DNA from: Escherichia phage K1-5 | DNA: 44,385 nucleotides | Reading direction: 5' to 3' (one strand) | Sequence record: NC_008152.1 | In this document: piece by piece, positions 1 to 44,385 of the stretch | How the letters are laid out: every line of letters begins with the position of its first letter | How positions within the stretch are numbered: position 1 is the stretch's first letter | Program-made: the position numbers and the translations under genes | Notes under the pieces: model-generated | Told to the model about the DNA's origin: nothing | The model's database searches: none | Seen by the model: only the letters and a program-made list of their open reading frames with translations

Positions 1-234
1 TCGCCCTCGCCCTCGCCGGGTTGTCCCCATAGGGTGGCCTGAGGGAATCCGTCTTCGACGGGCAGGGCTGATGTACTCCTTGTCTAGTACAAGGGAGGCG
101 GAGGGAACGCCTAGGGAGGCCTAGGAATGGCTTAGTGGTGGACAAGGTGATTACCTTAGTGAAGCCTCTTAGTGCATTCCTGAGGCCATTCAGGGCGTTT
201 ATGAGGGATTGACAGGGTGTGAGGGCGTGGGCTA
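1..234. repeat. Left direct terminal repeat (234 bp), identical to 44152..44385
   Basis: First 234 nt (tcgccctcgccctcgccggg...gagggcgtgggcta) recur exactly at the right end in the same orientation; typical terminal redundancy of T7-like genomes. Confidence 0.95.
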
Positions 235-237: not shown

Positions 238-608
238 GTTCCTTTGCTCCTCACTTCGTTCGTCGCTGCGGTAGCCTGATGTGTACCTTAGGTTATTCCT
301 TGATGGATAGCTTAGGTTAGCCTTAGTGGATTACCTTAGTTAAAGCCTTAGTGCTTCACTTAGTATCAGCTTAGTAGTGTACCTTAGTAAGTCTTAGTGT
401 CTTCTCTTAGTGATTGCACATGCAAGCATGTAAGATGCTAATAGGTCGCGGTCGGCAGACCGCTAAAGAAAGAGAATGGTAATAAGATGCAGTAGGAGGA
501 ACACCAGAAGCCTAGCCAACCTAAGCTATCCTAGCTCTATATCTATTGCTTTTCCTTAGTCTAACACGTTAGACAACCTATCTTATTCTTAGTGATGGTA
601 ACTTAGTG

Positions 609-3300: not shown

Positions 3301-5928
3301 ATGCAAGGCCTACACGCTATTCAACTTCAACTTGAAGAAGAAATGTTTAACGGCGGTATCCGTCGCTTTGAAGCGGACCAACAACGCCAGATTGCATCCG
3401 GTAATGAATCAGACACGGCATGGAATCGCCGCTTATTGTCCGAGTTAATCGCGCCAATGGCTGAAGGTATTCAGGCATACAAGGAAGAGTATGAAGGTAA
3501 AAGAGGCCGTGCACCGCGTGCATTAGCTTTCATTAACTGCGTAGAAAACGAAGTGGCAGCATATATCACGATGAAAATCGTTATGGATATGCTGAACACG
3601 GATGTAACCTTGCAGGCTATAGCCATGAATGTAGCTGACCGCATTGAGGACCAAGTACGTTTTAGCAAGCTGGAAGGTCACGCCGCCAAATACTTTGAAA
3701 AAGTTAAGAAGTCACTTAAGGCAAGTAAGACTAAATCATATCGCCATGCGCACAACGTAGCGGTAGTGGCTGAGAAGTCAGTAGCTGACCGTGACGCTGA
3801 TTTCTCCCGCTGGGAGGCATGGCCTAAAGACACCTTGCTGCAAATTGGGATGACCTTGCTTGAAATCTTAGAGAATAGCGTATTCTTCAACGGGCAACCT
3901 GTCTTCCTCCGCACCTTGCGCACTAATGGCGGCAAACATGGTGTTTACTACCTACAGACTAGTGAACACGTAGGTGAGTGGATAACTGCATTCAAAGAGC
4001 ACGTAGCGCAACTGAGTCCTGCCTATGCTCCTTGCGTCATCCCTCCGCGTCCGTGGGTATCACCTTTTAACGGCGGTTTCCACACTGAGAAAGTAGCAAG
4101 CCGTATTCGTCTGGTAAAAGGAAACCGCGAACACGTCCGCAAGCTGACCAAAAAGCAAATGCCAGAGGTTTACAAGGCTGTTAACGCGTTGCAGGCGACT
4201 AAATGGCAGGTTAACAAGGAAGTTTTACAGGTTGTGGAAGACGTCATCCGTCTAGACCTAGGTTATGGTGTACCTTCCTTTAAACCACTCATTGACCGCG
4301 AGAACAAGCCAGCTAATCCAGTGCCGCTAGAATTTCAGCACCTACGGGGCCGTGAACTGAAAGAAATGCTTACGCCGGAACAATGGCAAGCCTTTATCAA
4401 CTGGAAAGGTGAATGTACTAAGCTGTACACCGCTGAAACTAAGCGCGGAAGCAAATCGGCGGCAACCGTTCGCATGGTTGGTCAGGCCCGTAAATATAGC
4501 CAGTTCGACGCAATCTACTTCGTGTATGCACTGGACAGCCGCAGCCGCGTCTACGCGCAATCTAGCACACTCTCACCGCAATCAAATGACTTGGGCAAGG
4601 CCTTGCTCCGTTTTACCGAAGGGCAGCGTCTTGATAGCGCTGAGGCGCTTAAGTGGTTTTTGGTGAACGGGGCTAATAACTGGGGTTGGGATAAGAAAAC
4701 TTTTGACGTGCGCACCGCTAACGTGCTGGATAGTGAATTTCAAGACATGTGCCGCGACATTGCAGCGGATCCGCTGACCTTCACTCAATGGGTAAATGCC
4801 GACTCCCCTTACGGCTTCCTTGCATGGTGCTTTGAATATGCGCGTTATCTGGATGCACTGGATGAAGGCACGCAAGACCAATTCATGACGCACCTCCCAG
4901 TCCATCAAGATGGTAGTTGTTCTGGTATCCAGCACTACAGTGCTATGCTACGCGATGCAGTAGGTGCGAAAGCAGTAAACCTTAAGCCCTCTGACTCTCC
5001 TCAAGATATTTATGGTGCCGTTGCGCAGGTAGTAATTCAGAAGAATTATGCATACATGAATGCAGAGGATGCGGAAACCTTCACTTCTGGCAGCGTGACT
5101 TTAACAGGTGCGGAGCTGCGTAGTATGGCTAGTGCGTGGGATATGATAGGAATCACTCGCGGCCTGACCAAAAAGCCCGTAATGACACTACCTTATGGCA
5201 GCACACGTCTAACCTGCCGTGAGTCAGTGATTGATTATATCGTTGATTTAGAAGAAAAAGAGGCCCAACGGGCTATTGCGGAAGGGCGTACCGCCAATCC
5301 TGTACACCCTTTTGATAATGACCGTAAAGACAGCCTGACACCTAGCGCAGCTTATAACTATATGACAGCTTTAATCTGGCCTTCTATTTCGGAAGTGGTT
5401 AAAGCCCCTATAGTGGCAATGAAAATGATTCGTCAGCTTGCCCGTTTCGCAGCTAAAAGGAATGAAGGCTTAGAGTATACCCTGCCTACTGGCTTCATCT
5501 TGCAACAAAAGATTATGGCTACTGATATGCTCCGCGTATCTACTTGCTTGATGGGAGAAATCAAGATGAGTCTACAGATTGAAACAGACGTAGTGGATGA
5601 AACGGCAATGATGGGCGCTGCTGCTCCTAACTTTGTGCATGGTCATGATGCCAGCCACCTTATCTTAACAGTCTGCGACCTTGTTGATAAAGGGATTACA
5701 TCTATCGCAGTTATTCATGACTCTTTTGGCACTCATGCAGGCCGTACAGCCGACCTTCGTGATAGCTTAAGGGCAGAAATGGTGAAGATGTATCAAGGCC
5801 GTAATGCACTGCAAAGCCTGCTAGATGAGCACGAAGAACGCTGGTTAGTTGATACCGGAATACAAGTACCAGAGCAAGGGGAGTTTGACCTTAACGAAAT
5901 CTTAGTTTCAGACTATTGCTTCGCATAA
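3301..5928 (+). CDS. T7-like single-subunit DNA-directed RNA polymerase
   Basis: 875 aa; [16 protein letters not shown] (motif A), IHDSFGTHA (motif C), C-terminal ...DYCFA; AGGAG RBS. Confidence 0.97.
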
Positions 5929-5936
5929 TATTAATA

Positions 5937-5966
5937 GGCCATTCCTTCGGGAGTGGCCTTTCTTTT
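5937..5966 (+). terminator. Hairpin with UUCG-type loop plus T-run just after the RNAP gene
   Basis: ggccattcc-ttcg-ggagtggcc followed by tttctttt. Confidence 0.55.
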
Positions 5967-6001
5967 ACCTACTACCTGTAACATTTCATTAACATAAAAG
6001 T

Positions 6002-6017
6002 GTCTCACATGTGAGAC
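6002..6017. promoter_or_regulatory. 16-bp perfect palindrome GTCTCACATGTGAGAC (copy 1)
   Basis: Read directly; immediately upstream of promoter 6020. Confidence 0.6.
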
Positions 6018-6019
6018 TT

Positions 6020-6040
6020 ATTTACCGGACACTATAGGAT
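6020..6040 (+). promoter_or_regulatory. Phage RNAP promoter (early-type variant)
   Basis: atttaccggacactataggat; 2 nt downstream of a 16-bp palindrome. Confidence 0.6.
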
Positions 6041-6081
6041 AGCCGTCGGAGACGGGAAAGAAAGGGAAGATAAAGGATATA

Positions 6082-6140
6082 AAGGAAGTAATAGGTATTA
6101 AAGGTTATATAGGTTATCTAGGAATACCTATTACCTTCTT
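6082..6140. other. AT-rich dyad element (candidate primary replication origin)
   Basis: 12-bp inverted arms gtaataggtatt (6088..6099) and aatacctattac (6123..6134) flanking aaaggttatataggttatctagg; lies between two phage promoters after the RNAP gene. Confidence 0.4.
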
Positions 6141-6182
6141 CCTTCCTCTTATTACCACTCAGAGGAAGGGCAGACCTAGGTT

Positions 6183-6198
6183 GTCTCACATGTGAGAC
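6183..6198. promoter_or_regulatory. 16-bp palindrome GTCTCACATGTGAGAC (copy 2)
   Basis: Read directly; upstream of promoter-like 6204. Confidence 0.6.
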
Positions 6199-6203
6199 TT
6201 CGT

Positions 6204-6224
6204 ATTTACCGGACAGTATAGATA
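6204..6224 (+). promoter_or_regulatory. Phage RNAP promoter-like variant
   Basis: atttaccggacagtatagata; preceded by a second copy of the 16-bp palindrome. Confidence 0.4.
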
Positions 6225-6251: not shown

Positions 6252-6380
6252 ATGCGCAACTTTGAGAAGATGGCCCGTAAAGCTAACCGTTTTGACATGG
6301 AAGAGGGGCAGAAGAAAGGCAAGAAGCTGAATAAGCCTGTCCGTGACCGTGCATCTAAACGCGCTGCGTGGGAGTTCTAA
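6252..6380 (+). CDS. Small basic protein (42 aa), below ORF-track cutoff
   Basis: GGAGA RBS about 7 nt before ATG; MRNFEKMARKANRF...; ends just before the primase start. Confidence 0.35.
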   Translation: MRNFEKMARKANRFDMEEGQKKGKKLNKPVRDRASKRAAWEF

Positions 6381-6383
6381 GTT

Positions 6384-8372
6384 ATGGCTATTATTCAGAA
6401 TGTACCGTGTCCTGCCTGTCAAAAGAATGGACATGATATTACTGGCAACCATCTCATGATATTTGATGATGGTGCCGGCTACTGTAATCGTGGACACTTT
6501 CATGATAATGGTAGACCTTACTATCACAAGCCGGAAGGTGGCATCGAGATAACCGAGTTATCTATTACTGGCAATATCAAATATACACCTTCTCAATTCA
6601 AAGAAATGGAGAAGGAAGGGAAGATAAGCGACCCTAAATTACGTGCCATCGCACTTGGTGGTATGCGTATGAAAGACCGTTGGGAGGTCATGAATGAACA
6701 AGAAAGGGCAGAGCAAGAAGCAGAGTGGAAACTTGATGTTGAATGGTTCCTCACGCTTAAGCGTAAGAACCTTGTTTCCAGGCACATTCGCGGCGACATT
6801 TGCGCATTGTATGATGTACGTGTTGGGCACGATGAAGAGGGTAGAGTCTCACGGCATTACTATCCGCGCTTCGAAAAAGGTGAGCTAGTAGGCGCTAAGT
6901 GTCGCACATTACCTAAAGATTTTAAGTTTGGTCATTTAGGTAAACTCTTTGGTATGCAAGATCTTTTCGGTATGAATACTTTGTCTCACGTGTTAGACAA
7001 GGGAAGACGAAAGGATTGCTTGCTCATTGTCGGCGGCGAACTGGATGCACTAGCAGCGCAGCAGATGCTCCTTGATTCTGCCAAGGGTACTAAGTGGGAA
7101 GGCCAGCCATACCATGTATGGTCTGTCAACAAAGGCGAGTCTTGCCTTGAAGAGATAGTGCAGAACCGTGAGCATATCGCCCAATTCAAGAAGATTATAT
7201 GGGGTTTTGATGGAGATGAGGTAGGGCAGAAGCAGAATCAGCAAGCGGCTCGCCTGTTTCCTGGTAAATCCTATATCCTTGAATACCCCTCTGGTTGCAA
7301 AGATGCTAACAAGGCATTGATGGCTGGCAAGGCTAAAGAATTTGTAGATGCATGGTTTAATGCCAAGTCATCTGATGAAGTCTTTGGTAGCCAGATTAAA
7401 TCTATCGCATCTCAAAGGGATAAGCTCAAGGCTGCACGTCCAGAGCAAGGACTGTCATGGCCTTGGCCTAAGCTGAACAAGGTAACGCTAGGTATTCGTA
7501 AGAACCAGCTTATCATTGTAGGTGCAGGGTCTGGTGTAGGTAAGACTGAGTTCCTTCGTGAAGTAGTTAAGCACCTCATTGAAGAACACGGTGAATCTGT
7601 AGGCATCATTTCTACAGAAGACCCGATGGTCAAGGTGTCCCGTGCTTTTATCGGCAAGTGGATTGATAAGCGTATTGAGTTACCTCCAACCAACGACCCG
7701 AAAGAAGACGGATACCGTGAGGTGTTCGACTATACCGAGGAAGAAGCTAACGCCGCCATTGATTATGTAGCTGATACAGGTAAGCTGTTTGTAGCTGACC
7801 TAGAGGGTGACTATTCGATGGAAAAGGTAGAGCAAACTTGCCTAGAGTTTGAGGCTATGGGTATTTCTAATATCATCATTGATAACTTAACGGGGATTAA
7901 ATTAGATGAGCGTGCTTTTGGTGGGAAGGTTGGTGCACTTGATGAATGCGTCAAGCGGATTGGTACTATCAAAGACCGACACCCGGTTACTATATTCCTT
8001 GTATCACACCTTACACGTCCTCCGGCAAACCGTACCCAACACGAAGAAGGTGGCGAAGTTATCCTTTCTGACTTCCGAGGCTCAGGCGCTATCGGATTCT
8101 GGGCATCTTACGCCTTGGGGATTGAGCGTAATACAAGAGCTGAAACGCTTGACGAAAGGACTACCACGTACATCTCATGTGTCAAAGACCGCGACCAAGG
8201 TATCTACACTGGAACCAAGGTCATGCTTAAGGGTGACATTCAAACCGGACGTTTAATGGAACCACAAGCCCGTACTAAGTCATTTGATACAGGTGAAGCA
8301 AGGCAACAAGAAGTACCAGATTTACCGGATACTATAGAAGAGACTACCTTCGATGAAGAAAGTGAGTTCTGA
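6384..8372 (+). CDS. DNA primase/helicase (T7 gp4-like)
   Basis: 662 aa; N-terminal Cys4 zinc ribbon (CPACQ...YCNRGH), Walker A GAGSGVGKTEF, acidic C-terminus ...DEESEF. Confidence 0.95.
   Translation: MAIIQNVPCPACQKNGHDITGNHLMIFDDGAGYCNRGHFHDNGRPYYHKPEGGIEITELSITGNIKYTPSQFKEMEKEGKISDPKLRAIALGGMRMKDRWEVMNEQERAEQEAEWKLDVEWFLTLKRKNLVSRHIRGDICALYDVRVGHDEEGRVSRHYYPRFEKGELVGAKCRTLPKDFKFGHLGKLFGMQDLFGMNTLSHVLDKGRRKDCLLIVGGELDALAAQQMLLDSAKGTKWEGQPYHVWSVNKGESCLEEIVQNREHIAQFKKIIWGFDGDEVGQKQNQQAARLFPGKSYILEYPSGCKDANKALMAGKAKEFVDAWFNAKSSDEVFGSQIKSIASQRDKLKAARPEQGLSWPWPKLNKVTLGIRKNQLIIVGAGSGVGKTEFLREVVKHLIEEHGESVGIISTEDPMVKVSRAFIGKWIDKRIELPPTNDPKEDGYREVFDYTEEEANAAIDYVADTGKLFVADLEGDYSMEKVEQTCLEFEAMGISNIIIDNLTGIKLDERAFGGKVGALDECVKRIGTIKDRHPVTIFLVSHLTRPPANRTQHEEGGEVILSDFRGSGAIGFWASYALGIERNTRAETLDERTTTYISCVKDRDQGIYTGTKVMLKGDIQTGRLMEPQARTKSFDTGEARQQEVPDLPDTIEETTFDEESEF
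8320..8340 (+). promoter_or_regulatory. Near-consensus phage promoter inside the 3' end of the primase/helicase gene
   Basis: atttaccggatactatagaag. Confidence 0.45.
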
Positions 8373-8387
8373 TTAGTGTATTTATCA

Positions 8388-8413
8388 GGCTTGTCTCACA
8401 TGTGAGACAGGCT
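8388..8413. promoter_or_regulatory. Extended hairpin around palindrome copy 3
   Basis: caggcttGTCTCACATGTGAGACaggctc; follows the primase/helicase stop. Confidence 0.6.
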
Positions 8414-12511: not shown

Positions 12512-12579
12512 GTTATACTCAAGGTCACTTACGAGTGGCCTTTATGAATAACTTATTCCTACTTATTTTGTCTAACATG

Positions 12580-12600
12580 ATTTACTGGACACTATAGAAG
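12580..12600 (+). promoter_or_regulatory. Phage RNAP promoter (perfect consensus)
   Basis: atttactggacactatagaag. Confidence 0.8.
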
Positions 12601-12666
12601 GAAAGCATAGGTAATCTAGGTTTATAAGGTAGTATAGGTAATTAAGTAAATATAGGAGATATAAAT

Positions 12667-13044
12667 ATGTCTATGGTAACTACTCTGGTATTCGTGGCTC
12701 AATACTTTCGTGGTCTTGCTAATAAGTTCAAGTCCAAGGCTATCAAAGCTATTGAGGCTCGCATCGAAGCAGTACAGGCAGAGCAAGTTAAAGTTGAAGA
12801 ACATCGTAGTTCTCAAATGATTGACTGTCATAACCGCTACTATGCATCTCGTGATGAACTAAATGCACGTCAAGTCAAAGAGGTAGAAGATATGCTGGCA
12901 CGTCACCAGCAAGAGCGTGACAGCCTGAAAGCTGAATTTGAAGAGAACAAGGCATCAATTGCTCTTGTACATCAAGCTGCATCTGACAGTCTGAAGAAAG
13001 AGATTGTTATGCTGGAAATCGAACTGGATAACCTGACCAAATAA
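12667..13044 (+). CDS. Hypothetical coiled-coil protein (125 aa)
   Basis: AGGAGA RBS; downstream of a consensus phage promoter. Confidence 0.6.
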   Translation: MSMVTTLVFVAQYFRGLANKFKSKAIKAIEARIEAVQAEQVKVEEHRSSQMIDCHNRYYASRDELNARQVKEVEDMLARHQQERDSLKAEFEENKASIALVHQAASDSLKKEIVMLEIELDNLTK

Positions 13045-14558: not shown

Positions 14559-14574
14559 GTCTCACGTGTGAGAC
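14559..14574. promoter_or_regulatory. Palindrome variant GTCTCACGTGTGAGAC (copy 4)
   Basis: Loop differs (CGTG vs CATG), stem conserved; upstream of promoter 14590. Confidence 0.55.
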
Positions 14575-31007: not shown

Positions 31008-31037
31008 AAGGCTTGTCTCACATGTGAGACAGGTCTT
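31008..31037. promoter_or_regulatory. Extended hairpin around palindrome copy 5
   Basis: aaggcttGTCTCACATGTGAGACaggtcttt; between gp15-like and gp16-like genes. Confidence 0.6.
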
Positions 31038-35696: not shown

Positions 35697-37594
35697 TGGC
35701 TAAGGCAAGAGAATCACAAGCGGAGGCTCTTGCCAGATGGGAGATGCTACAGGAGTTACAGCAGACCTTTCCTTACACCGCGGAAGGTTTGCTTCTCTTT
35801 GCAGATACAGTTATTCATAACTTAATTGCAGGCAACCCTCATCTGATTCGTATGCAGGCGGATATCTTGAAGTTCCTATTTTACGGACACAAGTACCGCC
35901 TCATCGAAGCGCCTCGTGGTATCGCTAAGACAACACTATCAGCAATCTATACGGTATTCCGTATTATTCATGAACCGCATAAGCGTATCATGGTTGTGTC
36001 CCAAAACGCCAAGCGAGCAGAGGAAATCGCAGGTTGGGTAGTTAAAATCTTCCGTGGCTTAGACTTTCTTGAGTTTATGCTGCCGGATATCTACGCTGGG
36101 GACCGTGCATCCGTTAAGGCGTTTGAGATTCATTACACCCTACGTGGTAGTGATAAGTCTCCTTCTGTATCCTGTTACTCAATCGAAGCAGGTATGCAGG
36201 GTGCTCGTGCTGATATTATTCTAGCGGATGACGTAGAGTCGATGCAGAATGCTCGTACGGCAGCGGGCCGTGCCTTGCTTGAGGAGCTGACTAAGGAGTT
36301 TGAATCTATCAACCAGTTTGGGGATATCATTTACCTTGGTACACCTCAGAACGTAAACTCTATCTACAACAACCTACCTGCTCGTGGTTACTCTGTTCGT
36401 ATCTGGACTGCGCGTTACCCTTCAGTAGAGCAAGAGCAATGTTATGGCGACTTCCTTGCACCTATGATTGTTCAAGATATGAAGGACAACCCAGCACTTC
36501 GCTCAGGGTACGGGTTGGATGGTAATAGTGGTGCACCTTGTGCCCCTGAAATGTATGATGATGAAGTCCTGATTGAGAAGGAAATCTCTCAGGGTGCTGC
36601 TAAGTTCCAGCTTCAGTTCATGCTTAACACTCGCATGATGGATGCTGACAGATACCCATTACGCCTGAACAATCTAATCTTCACCTCGTTTGGTACAGAG
36701 GAAGTCCCTGTGATGCCTACGTGGAGTAATGATTCCATAAACATCATTGGTGATGCACCTAAGTATGGTAACAAGCCTACGGATTTCATGTACAGACCTG
36801 TAGCTCGCCCATATGAATGGGGTGCTGTCTCCCGCAAGATTATGTATATTGACCCTGCGGGTGGTGGTAAGAACGGAGATGAGACGGGTGTAGCCATCGT
36901 ATTCCTGCACGGCACATTCATTTATGTGTATCAGTGCTTTGGTGTACCTGGCGGATACCGAGAGTCGTCCCTGAATCGCATTGTGCAGGCCGCAAAGCAG
37001 GCGGGTGTTAAAGAGGTATTCATTGAGAAGAACTTTGGTCATGGCGCGTTTGAGGCGGTAATTAAGCCGTACTTTGAACGAGAGTGGCCTGTAACTCTGG
37101 AAGAGGATTACGCCACCGGACAGAAAGAGTTGCGTATCATTGAGACGCTGGAGCCGCTCATGGCAGCCCATAGGCTTATCTTCAATGCAGAGATGGTGAA
37201 GTCAGACTTTGAGTCGGTACAGCACTATCCGCTTGAACTACGCATGTCCTACAGTCTTTTCAATCAAATGTCGAACATAACGATTGAGAAGAACAGCCTC
37301 CGGCACGATGACCGCCTAGACGCCCTGTATGGCGCTATACGGCAATTAACTTCTCAGATAGACTATGACGAGGTTACACGGATTAATCGCCTCAGAGCGC
37401 AGGAGATGCGCGATTACATCCATGCTATGAACACACCTCATCTACGCAGGGCAATGCTATATGGAGATTACGGTACTGAGCGAAGAGTGACCAACACTTC
37501 CGTAGCGATGCAGCAGCGAGTTTACGGGCAGAACTACCGAAATAAATCGGCAAGCAGAAATACACTTTCTGCAAGGATTTCAAGGACTTATTAA
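35696..37594 (+). CDS. Terminase large subunit (gp19-like)
   Basis: 632 aa; AAGGAGG RBS; deviant Walker A RGIAKTT, Walker B IILADDVE, RNaseH-like nuclease segment IDPAGGGKNGDETGVAI. Confidence 0.9.
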   Translation: MAKARESQAEALARWEMLQELQQTFPYTAEGLLLFADTVIHNLIAGNPHLIRMQADILKFLFYGHKYRLIEAPRGIAKTTLSAIYTVFRIIHEPHKRIMVVSQNAKRAEEIAGWVVKIFRGLDFLEFMLPDIYAGDRASVKAFEIHYTLRGSDKSPSVSCYSIEAGMQGARADIILADDVESMQNARTAAGRALLEELTKEFESINQFGDIIYLGTPQNVNSIYNNLPARGYSVRIWTARYPSVEQEQCYGDFLAPMIVQDMKDNPALRSGYGLDGNSGAPCAPEMYDDEVLIEKEISQGAAKFQLQFMLNTRMMDADRYPLRLNNLIFTSFGTEEVPVMPTWSNDSINIIGDAPKYGNKPTDFMYRPVARPYEWGAVSRKIMYIDPAGGGKNGDETGVAIVFLHGTFIYVYQCFGVPGGYRESSLNRIVQAAKQAGVKEVFIEKNFGHGAFEAVIKPYFEREWPVTLEEDYATGQKELRIIETLEPLMAAHRLIFNAEMVKSDFESVQHYPLELRMSYSLFNQMSNITIEKNSLRHDDRLDALYGAIRQLTSQIDYDEVTRINRLRAQEMRDYIHAMNTPHLRRAMLYGDYGTERRVTNTSVAMQQRVYGQNYRNKSASRNTLSARISRTY

Positions 37595-37613
37595 TTACTG
37601 GACACTATAGAAG
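37593..37613 (+). promoter_or_regulatory. Phage RNAP promoter just after the terminase large subunit
   Basis: aattactggacactatagaag; overlaps terminase stop; followed by an ATAGGT-rich block. Confidence 0.7.
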
Positions 37614-37755
37614 GAAGGCCCAGATAATAAGAGAAAATAATAGGTAATATATATATAGGTTAACCTAGGTTATATAGGTATGCCTTAGTATGGGTGTACT
37701 CCTGTACACCCTATTCCTTACTACCTTACTATATTTACATAATAGGAGAGAGACA

Positions 37756-38034
37756 ATGGCTAATGATTATAGTAGTCAACCATTAACAGGTAAGTCTAAG
37801 AGAAAGCAGGTACAACCTGTAAGTGAAGAACTAATGCTTCCGGTGCTCAAAAAAGAGGAAGTTAGTAAGAAAAGCAATGTTATTAATGATGCCACCAAAT
37901 CAGGTAAACAGAAAGGGGCCATGGTGTGCCTTGAAGTGAAAGGTGGTGTATTGAAGATTGCTATCGCGGTTGATGGCAAAGAAGATTCAGAGTGGAAGTT
38001 AGTAACAGTGGAACCAACTGTTAACCCAGTTTAA
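37756..38034 (+). CDS. Hypothetical protein (92 aa), paralogue A
   Basis: Track ORF 37690; ATG 37756 after AGGAGAG; shares KKEE..SK...SGKQKGAMV.LE...IAVA motif with the next ORF. Confidence 0.55.
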   Translation: MANDYSSQPLTGKSKRKQVQPVSEELMLPVLKKEEVSKKSNVINDATKSGKQKGAMVCLEVKGGVLKIAIAVDGKEDSEWKLVTVEPTVNPV

Positions 38035-44151: not shown

Positions 44152-44385
44152 TCGCCCTCGCCCTCGCCGGGTTGTCCCCATAGGGTGGCCTGAGGGAATC
44201 CGTCTTCGACGGGCAGGGCTGATGTACTCCTTGTCTAGTACAAGGGAGGCGGAGGGAACGCCTAGGGAGGCCTAGGAATGGCTTAGTGGTGGACAAGGTG
44301 ATTACCTTAGTGAAGCCTCTTAGTGCATTCCTGAGGCCATTCAGGGCGTTTATGAGGGATTGACAGGGTGTGAGGGCGTGGGCTA
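44152..44385. repeat. Right direct terminal repeat (234 bp)
   Basis: Exact copy of 1..234 read by eye; window ends exactly at the repeat end. Confidence 0.95.

What the first reader, a model, noticed from the sequence alone, without database searches (positions are those of the whole stretch)
6041..6180. AT-rich dyad block between two promoters after the RNAP gene: candidate primary replication origin
After the RNAP gene come a terminator-like hairpin, palindrome plus promoter (6020), an AT-rich segment with a near-perfect inverted repeat (gtaataggtatt / aatacctattac) around ATAGGT motifs, then a second palindrome plus promoter (6204). In T7 the primary origin lies just downstream of gene 1 and comprises two promoters followed by an AT-rich region, so the architecture is analogous.
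Basis: inference. Interest (0 to 1): 0.65.

Follow-up and report, generated by a model that had tools for sequence, protein, structure and literature searches.

The report
Promoter-flanked repeat block, candidate origin
Between the RNA polymerase gene and the primase gene of this SP6/K1-5-type phage lies a conserved non-coding block, with two phage promoters around an easily melted 9-base repeat array and a hairpin, at the same genomic spot as phage T7's main replication origin; it is a credible but unproven origin candidate, one of three such modules in the genome.

Summary
A terminator-like hairpin, two copies of a 16-bp palindrome, two phage promoters and an exact 12/12 inverted repeat (6088-6099 / 6123-6134) are all present and non-random.

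The window is a complete K1E/K1-5-like genome with 234-bp terminal repeats. The 42-aa gene after the second promoter is a homolog of T7 gene 1.1. The locus is therefore syntenic with T7's gene 1 - phi1.1A - phi1.1B - gene 1.1 primary-origin region, not merely analogous to it.

The block core (6066-6125) is one of the three least stable 60-bp duplexes in the genome, and all three lie just after phage promoters. In T7 the same metric picks out the leaders of phiOL, phi1.1B, phi6.5 and phiOR, the origin-associated promoters.

The block is far more conserved than synonymous sites, and so is T7's origin leader.

Three caveats apply. The AT-rich part lies between the promoters, which in T7 is the position of the R1.1 RNase III hairpin. 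It is a 9-nt ATAGGTwAT tandem array shared with two other promoter leaders. The flanking hairpins look like plus-strand RNA elements.

Origin function is the best-supported reading (about 0.45), but only experiment can decide. The case is a new member of a known kind.

The parts
3301..5928 (+). Phage RNA polymerase gene (875 aa), the left boundary of the intergenic region
   Evidence: ORF list. Relatives annotate it as RNA polymerase.
5936..5966 (+). Intrinsic-terminator-like hairpin AGGCCATTCC-TTCG-GGAGTGGCCT followed by TTCTTTT
   Evidence: Terminator scan. Annotated as a terminator in relatives. Conserved in SP6, Klebsiella and Proteus phages.
5965..5982 (+). Pyrimidine-rich TTACCTACTACCTGTAAC, inverted copies of the AGGTA-type repeat upstream of the first promoter
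   Evidence: Inverted repeat I6. Conserved across genera in the alignment.
6002..6017 (+). Palindrome/hairpin copy 1, GTCTCACATGTGAGAC
   Evidence: The stem bases covary in relatives (GTCCAAC..GTTGGAC and others), and SP6 copies carry a plus-strand U.G pair.
6020..6037 (+). Phage promoter P1. The +1 G is taken as 6037 by analogy with the SP6 promoter (established knowledge).
   Evidence: Exact match to the 12-member promoter consensus.
6043..6055 (+). 5' stem-loop of the P1 transcript, CCGUC-GGA-GACGG
   Evidence: Folding. The middle pair occurs as G-C, A-U and C-G and is never mismatched in any true homolog, although the search pattern left both positions free. L026 and L027 have CCAUC-GAA-GAUGG.
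6054..6122 (+). C-free, purine-rich, A+T-rich 9-nt tandem array (ATAAAGGAT/ATAGGTTAT, about 5-6 units). This is the low-stability core.
   Evidence: TRF. Longest C-free run and most purine-rich window. Third least stable 60-bp duplex. Whole-unit 10-nt indels in relatives.
6082..6140 (+). The dyad: arms 6082-6099 and 6123-6140 (exact core 6088-6099 / 6123-6134), with an apical mini-helix in the 23-nt spacer
   Evidence: z = -2.35. A long hairpin of 20-30 bp forms at the same place in every lineage examined.
6123..6161 (+). G-free pyrimidine-rich arm (ATACCTATTACCTTCTTCCTTCCTCTT...). It is nearly invariant within the genus.
   Evidence: Second-longest G-free run. Alignment A1.
6141..6169 (+). 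Third hairpin, CCUUCCUCU-(11 nt)-AGAGGAAGG
   Evidence: Folding.
6170..6182 (+). Conserved GCAGACCTAGGTT linker (CCTAGG core) before palindrome 2
   Evidence: Alignments. It pairs with an upstream CCTAGG in L026 and L027.
6183..6198 (+). Palindrome/hairpin copy 2
6204..6221 (+). Phage promoter P2, a variant with CAGTATAG
   Evidence: The variant form is conserved in relatives.
6252..6380 (+). 42-aa basic protein, homolog of T7 gp1.1. This is the synteny anchor.
   Evidence: BLASTP 54% identity, E = 6e-12. phrog_2490.
6384..8372 (+). DNA primase/helicase gene
   Evidence: ORF. Annotations of relatives.
12517..12666 (+). Second module: a T7-type RNase III-like hairpin (12517-12550), promoter 12580-12597, and a 9-nt ATAGGTAAT array forming a C-free leader (12598-12666) that runs into the start codon at 12667
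   Evidence: Least-stable-duplex rank 2. The leader is unstructured. Conserved in SP6.
37593..37755 (+). Third module: promoter 37593-37610, an AGG-repeat A+T-rich leader, a hairpin at 37691-37710, then a pyrimidine-rich arm before the start codon at 37756
   Evidence: Least-stable-duplex rank 1. Conserved in SP6.

Best explanation
The block is the non-coding leader transcribed from the first of two tandem phage-RNAP promoters that lie between the RNA polymerase gene and a gene-1.1 homolog. It is the SP6/K1-5-group counterpart of T7's phi1.1A/phi1.1B primary-origin region.

The proposed mechanism is inferred by homology with T7 and is not shown here. Phage RNAP starts at G6037, and the nascent RNA first forms a short 5' stem-loop. 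Within the next 20-90 nt the polymerase runs through the C-free, A+T-rich 9-nt repeat array, one of the three most easily melted stretches of the genome. There a short transcript is handed to the phage DNA polymerase as a primer for rightward synthesis. The primase-helicase, encoded immediately downstream, then loads on the displaced strand.

Two further promoter-plus-array modules, at 12.6 kb and 37.6 kb, would be secondary origins, as phiOL, phi6.5 and phiOR are associated with origin activity in T7. The hairpins (5' stem-loop, dyad, palindromes) most likely act on the plus-strand RNA, in stability or processing, alongside any origin function. T7's R1.1 hairpin sits inside its origin region in the same way.
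For: - **Synteny.** The order is RNAP gene, two tandem promoters with no intervening ORF, then a gp1.1 homolog, as in T7. P1 starts at 13.6% of a complete genome with a 234-bp terminal repeat. The T7 origin is at 14.75-15% with tandem promoters and no ORF between them, and 10-60 nt of promoter-derived RNA is found on nascent DNA (bioRxiv 10.1101/2024.10.01.616023). PMC8373140 names phi1.1A/B as primary origins and phiOR and phi6.5 as secondary origins, and says every T7 origin needs a T7 promoter.
- **Control-validated signature.** T7's four least stable 60-bp duplex windows are the leaders of phiOL, phi1.1B, phi6.5 and phiOR. In this genome the top three are the leaders of P37593, P12580 and P6020, the last being this block. 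In SP6 the same three loci are in the top five.
- **P1 is not needed for expression.** P2 lies 184 bp downstream and directly before the gene. Even so, the P1-block-P2 unit is kept across Vectrevirus, Zindervirus, Klebsiella, Proteus and more distant relatives. HNH-gene insertions in relatives lie outside it.
- **Purifying selection like T7's origin.** Mean pairwise identity of the block is 94.7%, against 73-79% at flanking third codon positions. T7's origin leader shows 98.7% against 66-82%.
Against: - The A+T-rich array lies between the promoters, the position T7 gives to the R1.1 RNase III hairpin. It does not follow the second promoter, and the P2-to-ATG spacer is only about 30 nt.
- T7's origin leader has neither a tandem repeat nor significant structure. 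This block has both, so something more sequence-specific than an unwinding region is being conserved.
- The repeat unit ATAGG(T/A) resembles the (A/C)TAGGAG ribosome-binding context of several genes. In the 12.6-kb module the last unit is the Shine-Dalgarno sequence itself, which suggests a role in translation.
- The flanking elements behave as plus-strand RNA hairpins.
- GC skew gives no origin signal. A hybrid-versus-duplex (R-loop) metric ranks the block fourth but fails the T7 control.
- There are no replication data for any SP6-like phage in the searchable literature.
Confidence: 0.45

Rival explanations
1. The block is purely an RNA-level element. It would be a structured 5' leader of P1 transcripts whose long imperfect hairpin (17-30 bp in different lineages) is a double-strand-specific processing or stability site. 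That makes it the functional counterpart of T7's R1.1 RNase III site, which occupies the same inter-promoter position. Cleavage or protection would set the stability and translation of the gene 8/primase mRNA.
For: - It occupies the same position as T7 R1.1. The T7 RNase III-site motif GAGTGGCCTTTATGA hits T7 5875-5889, between phi1.1A and phi1.1B, and that segment folds as a hairpin.
- Every lineage folds a long hairpin here although the sequences differ.
- The plus strand folds better than the minus strand in 9 of 9 lineages, with 0-6 G.U pairs.
- The 5' stem-loop shows compensatory changes.
- The palindrome family carries plus-strand U.G pairs and variable loops of 3-4 nt. Two copies (8389-8412, 31008-31037) sit in T7 R-site-like frames, with an upper stem, an internal loop and a lower stem, CTCAAGG...TCTTTATGA.
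- In read-through RNA the two palindromes flanking the block can pair with each other over 16 bp.
- The arrangement of an RNase site next to a promoter is common in T7 (PMC6938266).
Against: - The dyad lacks the conserved T7-type R-site sequence, which this genome does use elsewhere (exact 15/15 match at 12533-12547).
- There is no specific covariation. Swapping 5' and 3' arms between lineages gives duplexes about as stable as the cognate pairs (-27.9 against -29.9 kcal/mol).
- Within the genus, stem substitutions split 3 wobble-preserving to 3 disruptive.
- Fold z-scores are modest (-1.65 for the block, -2.35 for the dyad).
- The same repeat array in the other two modules is unstructured.
- No Rfam family matches.
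- The plus/minus asymmetry could simply reflect G+U-rich composition.
Confidence: 0.3
2. The 9-nt ATAGGTwAT units are Shine-Dalgarno-like, A/U-rich ribosome (30S/S1) standby or enhancer sites, or a sponge for an RNA-binding factor, placed in the leaders of three strongly transcribed operons. In this block the pyrimidine-rich, anti-SD-like arm masks them.
For: - The units contain AGG/AGGU/AAGGA cores in an A/U-rich context. They resemble the (A/C)TAGGAG ribosome-binding sites of 5 genes.
- At 12598-12666 the array is unstructured and its last unit is the actual SD of the gene at 12667.
- The arrays occur only on the transcribed strand, directly after promoters.
- The 9-nt period is not the DNA helical repeat.
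- The 12.6-kb leader is highly similar between SP6 and this phage.
Against: - In this block the array is more than 130 nt upstream of the nearest start codon and separated from it by a second promoter.
- Much of it is base-paired in the predicted fold.
- The GGA cores required by CsrA-type binders are not conserved in SP6 or the Klebsiella phages, which have mostly AGGU.
- T7's equally A+T-rich leaders also look like ribosome-binding contexts, yet they are origin-associated, so this reading does not exclude the origin.
Confidence: 0.12
3. The direct AGGTA-type repeats plus their inverted copies (TTACCT) form an iteron-like array bound on duplex DNA by an unidentified phage or host protein. One candidate is the small basic gp1.1 homolog encoded next door. 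The bound protein would organise initiation or regulate the two promoters.
For: - There are 5-6 direct units followed by 2-3 inverted units, and more inverted units upstream of P1.
- Copy number changes by whole units in relatives.
- Sequence-level conservation is far above neutral.
- The motif stays constant while the promoter specificity region differs between genera, so the units are not promoter decoys.
Against: - T7-type replication needs no initiator protein (established knowledge; PMC8373140 lists the four replisome proteins).
- The 9-nt spacing puts successive sites on different faces of the helix.
- No candidate binding protein was identified or tested.
- The arrays always lie on the transcribed strand downstream of promoters, which fits an RNA or transcription-coupled role better.
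Confidence: 0.06

Closest known systems
Bacteriophage T7 primary origin of replication (phi1.1A, phi1.1B and the 61-bp A+T-rich region before gene 1.1; Saito et al. 1980, Fuller & Richardson 1985; cited from memory and via PMC8373140, PMC12839067 and bioRxiv 10.1101/2024.10.01.616023)
   Same: - It lies immediately after the RNAP gene, at about 14-15% of a linear, terminally redundant genome.
- It has two tandem phage promoters with no ORF between them.
- It is followed by a gp1.1 homolog.
- A promoter-proximal segment is among the least stable duplexes of the genome.
- The non-coding leader is much more conserved than synonymous sites.
   Different: - The A+T-rich segment follows the first promoter and precedes the second; in T7 it follows both.
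- Promoter spacing is 184 bp against 75 bp.
- The segment is a 9-nt tandem array with a strong dyad, whereas T7's is non-repetitive and unstructured.
- A terminator-like hairpin separates it from the RNAP gene.
- Origin function has not been tested.
T7 RNase III processing site R1.1 (Dunn & Studier 1983, from memory; motif position confirmed)
   Same: It is a hairpin placed between the two tandem promoters upstream of gene 1.1. Both have a purine-rich AAGG-type 5' arm and an ACCTTCTTCC 3' arm (T7 GACCTTCTTCC, here TACCTTCTTCC).
   Different: - It lacks the conserved T7 R-site core GAGUGGCCUUUAUGA, which this genome has at 12533-12547.
- The stem is longer and more regular, without the typical upper stem, internal loop and lower stem design.
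- Cleavage has not been tested.
T7 secondary, promoter-associated origins (phiOL, phi6.5, phiOR). phiOR and phi6.5 are cited in PMC8373140; phiOL is from memory of Dunn & Studier 1983.
   Same: Each is a phage promoter directly followed by an A+T-rich, C-poor, low-stability leader. This genome has three such modules, at 6.0, 12.6 and 37.6 kb.
   Different: The modules here share a defined 9-nt repeat unit. Their positions differ from T7's, and none lies at the genome ends.
Iteron-containing origins (lambda ori; plasmid origins such as pSC101 and R6K)
   Same: Both have tandem short direct repeats next to an A+T-rich segment, with copy-number variation by whole units.
   Different: There is no initiator gene, the period is 9 nt rather than about 11 or 22 bp, the repeats lie inside a transcribed leader, and they are strand-specific.

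Membership tests
T7-type transcription-primed replication origin | One or more phage-RNAP promoters directing transcription into the origin | tested here: met
   Two exact consensus promoters at 6020 and 6204. There are 12 matches in the genome against 0.05 expected. Promoter activity itself was not tested.
T7-type transcription-primed replication origin | An A+T-rich, easily melted region immediately downstream of a promoter | tested here: met
   6066-6125 is 75% A+T and ranks third for least stable 60-bp duplex. The same metric ranks T7's phiOL, phi1.1B, phi6.5 and phiOR leaders 1-4.
T7-type transcription-primed replication origin | Location between gene 1 (RNAP) and gene 1.1, specific to the primary origin | tested here: met
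   RNAP ORF ends at 5928. The ORF at 6252-6380 is 54% identical to T7 gp1.1.
T7-type transcription-primed replication origin | The A+T-rich region lies downstream of both tandem promoters, as in T7 | tested here: not met
   The array lies between P1 and P2. The P2-to-ATG spacer is about 30 nt and is not compositionally exceptional.
T7-type transcription-primed replication origin | A primase recognition site on the displaced strand | tested here: inconclusive
   The recognition sequence of this phage's primase is not available from the tools. My recollection of 5'-GCA-3' for SP6 primase (Tseng et al. 2000) could not be verified. A GCA occurs at 6170-6172, but it is not conserved in the Klebsiella-type blocks.
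T7-type transcription-primed replication origin | Demonstrated RNAP-dependent initiation of DNA synthesis at the site | not testable with these tools
   This needs marker-frequency or nascent-strand mapping, or in vitro reconstitution. GC skew is uninformative.
T7-type RNase III processing site | Conserved R-site sequence core (GAGUGGCCUUUAUGA-like) in a hairpin with an upper stem, internal loop and lower stem | tested here: not met
   There is no match in 6037-6182. The matches are at 12533-12547 (0 mismatches) and 5951-5965 (3 mismatches, in the terminator). In T7 the motif marks the R sites.
T7-type RNase III processing site | About 20 bp or more of double-stranded RNA on the transcribed strand | tested here: inconclusive
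   The fold gives 17 bp with one 1x1 mismatch plus a 4-6 bp apical helix here, and 20-30 bp in other lineages. The z-score is only -2.35, and there is no specific covariation.
T7-type RNase III processing site | Cleavage by host RNase III | not testable with these tools
   Requires end mapping in rnc+ and rnc- hosts, or in vitro cleavage.
Iteron-type origin | Tandem direct repeats bound by a dedicated initiator protein | tested here: inconclusive
   Repeats are present. No initiator was identified, and the neighbouring proteins match only families of unknown function.
Any curated RNA family (Rfam 15) | A match at or above the family's gathering score | tested here: not met
   The best hit scores 24 bits against a threshold of 73. 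All 11 hits fall below their gathering scores.

The most novel reading that the evidence does not exclude
The 9-nt ATAGGTwAT tandem arrays that follow three of the twelve phage promoters would be a conserved, sequence-specific cis-element class of the SP6/K1-5 subfamily, not generic A+T-rich DNA. They occur at 6.0, 12.6 and 37.6 kb, are conserved at the same three loci in SP6, and recur at the first locus across several genera. On this reading a defined partner reads them, such as the 30S subunit or S1, a host RNA-binding protein, or a phage protein such as the gp1.1 homolog. That partner would couple transcription from those promoters to replication initiation or to translation control. The pyrimidine-rich arm in this block would act as a built-in mask.
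Probability: 0.2. Interest if true: 0.6.

Novelty: new member of a known kind. Interest (0 to 1): 0.42.

Why it matters
SP6, K1-5 and K1E are workhorse phages: the source of SP6 RNA polymerase, capsule-targeting therapeutic phages, and chassis for synthetic phages. To my knowledge, and in the searchable literature, their replication origins have never been mapped.

A well-anchored origin prediction gives a concrete 200-bp target for several uses:
- marker-frequency mapping;
- minimal-replicon and cell-free genome-replication designs;
- safe placement of engineered insertions.

The evidence behind the prediction is synteny with T7, a composition metric that recovers T7's own origin-associated leaders, and T7-like purifying selection.

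The comparison also asks whether 'two tandem promoters after the RNAP gene' is an ancient origin design shared across Autographiviridae. It also exposes a conserved repeat element whose sequence specificity T7 does not explain.

Tried and rejected
- **Cognate versus chimeric arm pairing across seven lineages.** There was no cognate advantage, so arm co-evolution cannot be claimed. The hairpin potential is generic, AGG repeats pairing with CCT repeats.
- **Substitutions within the genus stem.** They split 3 wobble-preserving to 3 disruptive, which gives no selection signal for pairing.
- **RNA:DNA-hybrid minus DNA-duplex stability (R-loop propensity).** I entered the nearest-neighbour parameters from memory (Sugimoto 1995, SantaLucia 1998). 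The block ranks fourth, but T7's known origins do not rank by this metric, so I do not use it as evidence.
- **GC and AT skew.** Skew is positive throughout and has no inflection, so it is uninformative in a genome transcribed in one direction.
- **Rfam.** Only sub-threshold microRNA-precursor and sRNA noise.
- **Metagenome pattern scan.** Only 3 of the 120 loci were true homologs and the rest were chance matches. The scan did give an unbiased test of the 5' hairpin's middle pair.
- **Promoter-decoy idea.** The TAGGT units resemble the SP6 promoter's -12 region. I rejected this because the motif stays constant while promoter specificity sequences differ between genera.
- **CsrA-sponge idea.** Rejected because the GGA cores are not conserved outside Vectrevirus.
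- **Small ORF or leader peptide.** There is no plus-strand ORF of 20 aa or more inside the block.
- **Literature.** No accessible paper discusses an origin in SP6-like phages. The two primary genome papers could not be read. For Dobbins et al. 2004 the one PMC id I tried, recalled from memory, was not held. I did not attempt Scholl et al. 2004. They may already have noted the analogy.

Full report
**What the window is.** The 44,385-bp window is a complete linear phage genome with an exact 234-bp direct terminal repeat. The region around the finding is 93-99.8% identical to Vectrevirus phages (K1E, AAPEc6 and others; family Autographiviridae, subfamily Molineuxvirinae) and about 72-76% identical to SP6 and to Klebsiella relatives. 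The length and terminal repeat match my recollection of the published K1-5 genome (Scholl et al. 2004). I could not verify that with the tools.

**Checking the observation.**
- The RNAP ORF ends at 5928.
- A 10-bp G+C-rich hairpin with a T-run follows at 5936-5966.
- The 16-bp perfect palindrome GTCTCACATGTGAGAC lies at 6002 and 6183. It has 7 copies genome-wide against 0.27 expected.
- The 18-nt promoter consensus lies at 6020 and 6204. It has 12 copies, all on the + strand, against 0.05 expected.
- The inverted repeat GTAATAGGTATT/AATACCTATTAC (6088-6099 / 6123-6134) is the only exact 12-nt inverted repeat with a short spacer in the genome. It never appears in 5000 shuffles of the block.
- 'AT-rich' holds for the 60-85-nt core (75% A+T, third in the genome). 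It does not hold for the whole 140 nt.

The P1 transcript, with +1 taken as G6037 by analogy with the SP6 promoter, would contain the following in order:
- A 5' stem-loop, CCGUC-GGA-GACGG, at 6043-6055.
- A 64-nt C-free, purine-rich stretch. This is the longest C-free run and the most purine-rich 60-nt window in the genome. TRF resolves it as a 9-nt tandem array, ATAAAGGAT/ATAGGTTAT, of about 5-6 units.
- A G-free pyrimidine-rich arm at 6123-6161. It pairs back onto the last repeat units to make the dyad, 17 bp plus an apical helix.
- A third hairpin at 6141-6169.
- A conserved CCTAGG linker.
- The second palindrome and P2.

No plus-strand ORF of 20 aa or more lies in the block, and no Rfam family matches.

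**Synteny with T7.** The 42-aa ORF after P2 (6252-6380) is 54% identical to T7 gp1.1. T7 has gene 1, phi1.1A (5848), phi1.1B (5923), then gene 1.1 (6007). The locus is therefore the positional homolog of T7's primary-origin region, and P1 starts at 13.6% of genome length. According to bioRxiv 10.1101/2024.10.01.616023:
- the T7 origin lies at 14.75-15% of genome length;
- it sits at a pair of tandem promoters with no ORF between them;
- nascent DNA carries 10-60 nt of promoter-derived RNA.

PMC8373140 names phi1.1A/B as primary origins and phiOR and phi6.5 as secondary origins, and states that every T7 origin needs a T7 promoter.

There is one mismatch. The T7 RNase III-site motif hits 5875-5889, between the two T7 promoters, and that segment folds as a hairpin. 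T7's A+T-rich leader follows the second promoter. Here the A+T-rich array lies between the promoters, and only about 30 nt separate P2 from the start codon.

**A control-validated composition test.** I ranked 60-bp windows by nearest-neighbour duplex stability.
- In T7 the four least stable windows are the leaders of phiOL, phi1.1B, phi6.5 and phiOR. That phiOL is origin-associated is from memory; the others are from PMC8373140.
- In this genome the three least stable windows are 37621-37680, 12607-12666 and 6066-6125. Each starts within about 30 nt downstream of a phage promoter (P37593, P12580, P6020).
- In SP6 the same three loci are in the top five.

The block therefore carries the T7 origin signature but is one of three such modules. 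The other two share the repeat unit: TRF finds ATAGGTAAT x5.6 at 12607-12656, and AGG-type units follow P37593. The second and third longest C-free runs are also there.

**Conservation.** The architecture recurs in SP6-type, Klebsiella-type, Proteus (Acadevirus) and more distant relatives, with 3 to 8 repeat units. It consists of a terminator, a hairpin, P1, a 5' stem-loop, an AGGT-type repeat array, a complementary pyrimidine arm, CCTAGG, an optional hairpin, and P2.
- Relatives differ by whole 10-nt units.
- HNH-endonuclease genes have inserted after gene 8 or after P2, but not inside the P1-P2 unit.
- Within Vectrevirus the block averages 94.7% pairwise identity, against 79% and 73% at third codon positions of the flanking primase and RNAP genes.
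- This does not argue against an origin. Among T7's relatives the experimentally defined A+T-rich origin leader is 98.7% identical, against 66-82% at third positions.

**Is the dyad an RNA structure?** The evidence is mixed.

In favour:
- Every lineage folds a 20-30-bp hairpin here.
- The plus strand folds better than the minus strand in 9 of 9 lineages.
- The 5' stem-loop's middle pair occurs as G-C, A-U and C-G and is never mismatched, even though the search pattern left both bases free.
- SP6's copies of the palindrome mostly carry a U.G pair that would be C.A on the other strand, and loop length varies between lineages.

Against:
- Arms from different lineages pair as well as cognate arms.
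- Stem substitutions within the genus are half disruptive.
- Z-scores are modest.
- The dyad lacks the T7-type R-site core, which this genome uses verbatim at 12533-12547.
- The arrays in the other two modules are unstructured, as is T7's origin leader.

My reading is that the flanking hairpins are plus-strand RNA elements. The dyad follows from having direct repeat units next to inverted ones, and it may or may not be read as double-stranded RNA.

**Other readings of the repeats.** The units are Shine-Dalgarno-like (AGG/AGGU in an A/U-rich context) and resemble the TAGGAG-type ribosome-binding sites of five genes. At 12.6 kb the last unit is the SD itself. A role as a translation enhancer or standby site is therefore plausible for that module. 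It is less plausible here, where the array is more than 130 nt and one promoter away from the start codon. An iteron-type protein-binding array is possible, but the 9-nt period, the strand specificity and the absence of an initiator protein argue against it.

**Verdict.** The best-supported model is a T7-type, promoter-coupled initiation zone, with confidence about 0.45. It is homologous in position to T7's primary origin and accompanied by two probable secondary modules, and RNA hairpins are layered on top. A purely RNA-level leader or processing element comes next at about 0.3. None of this can be settled without mapping replication initiation and RNA ends. If the model is right, this is a new member of a known kind of origin, with a lineage-specific 9-nt repeat and dyad that T7 lacks.

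Noticed in passing
window 559-574, 6002-6017, 6183-6198, 6983-6998, 8393-8408, 14559-14574, 31015-31030: These are a dispersed family of GTCnnAC-loop-GTnnGAC hairpin palindromes, 7 copies against 0.27 expected. The positions are conserved in SP6, including the copy inside the primase gene. The inner stem bases covary between genera, SP6 copies carry a plus-strand U.G pair, and loops are 3-4 nt. This suggests plus-strand RNA hairpins and not operator sites.
   Followed up: partly
window 8389-8412 and 31008-31037: Two of the palindromes are extended to 12-13-bp stems. They are set in a lower stem and internal loop framed by CTCAAGG...TCTTTATGA, the design and flanking sequence of T7 RNase III sites. 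Fold z-scores are -4.6 and -5.1.
   Followed up: partly
window 12517-12550: ACTCAAGGTCACTTACGAGTGGCCTTTATGA is almost identical to the core of T7's R1.1 RNase III site. The motif GAGTGGCCTTTATGA matches 15/15, and in T7 that motif marks the R sites. It lies just upstream of promoter 12580.
   Followed up: partly
window 12598-12666 and 37611-37755: Two more promoter leaders are built from the same 9-nt ATAGGTAAT-type units. They contain the second and third longest C-free runs and are the two least stable 60-bp duplexes in the genome. Both are conserved at the same loci in SP6.
   Followed up: partly
window 6204-6221; relatives L003, L005, L023: The second promoter is a conserved variant. It reads CAGTATAG in Vectrevirus and Proteus phages and CACTATTG in SP6 and Klebsiella phages, where other promoters read CACTATAG. 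This suggests a deliberately different strength or regulation.
   Followed up: no
window 284-411: Tandem repeats with a period of 23-24 nt (TACCTTAGGTTAGCCTTAGTGGAT-like) lie just inside the left terminal repeat and contain TTAGG motifs. They recall the repeat arrays near T7's left end.
   Followed up: no
relatives L017, L018, L021, L024, L026 (after gene 8), L176 (after P2), L102/L174 (before P2): HNH homing-endonuclease genes have inserted repeatedly around this locus in different relatives. In the loci examined they always lie outside the stretch from P1 through the repeat array and dyad.
   Followed up: partly
window 1-234 and 44152-44385: There is an exact 234-bp direct terminal repeat, so the window is a complete genome. 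These ends are also the most favourable windows by the RNA:DNA-hybrid-minus-duplex stability metric.
   Followed up: partly
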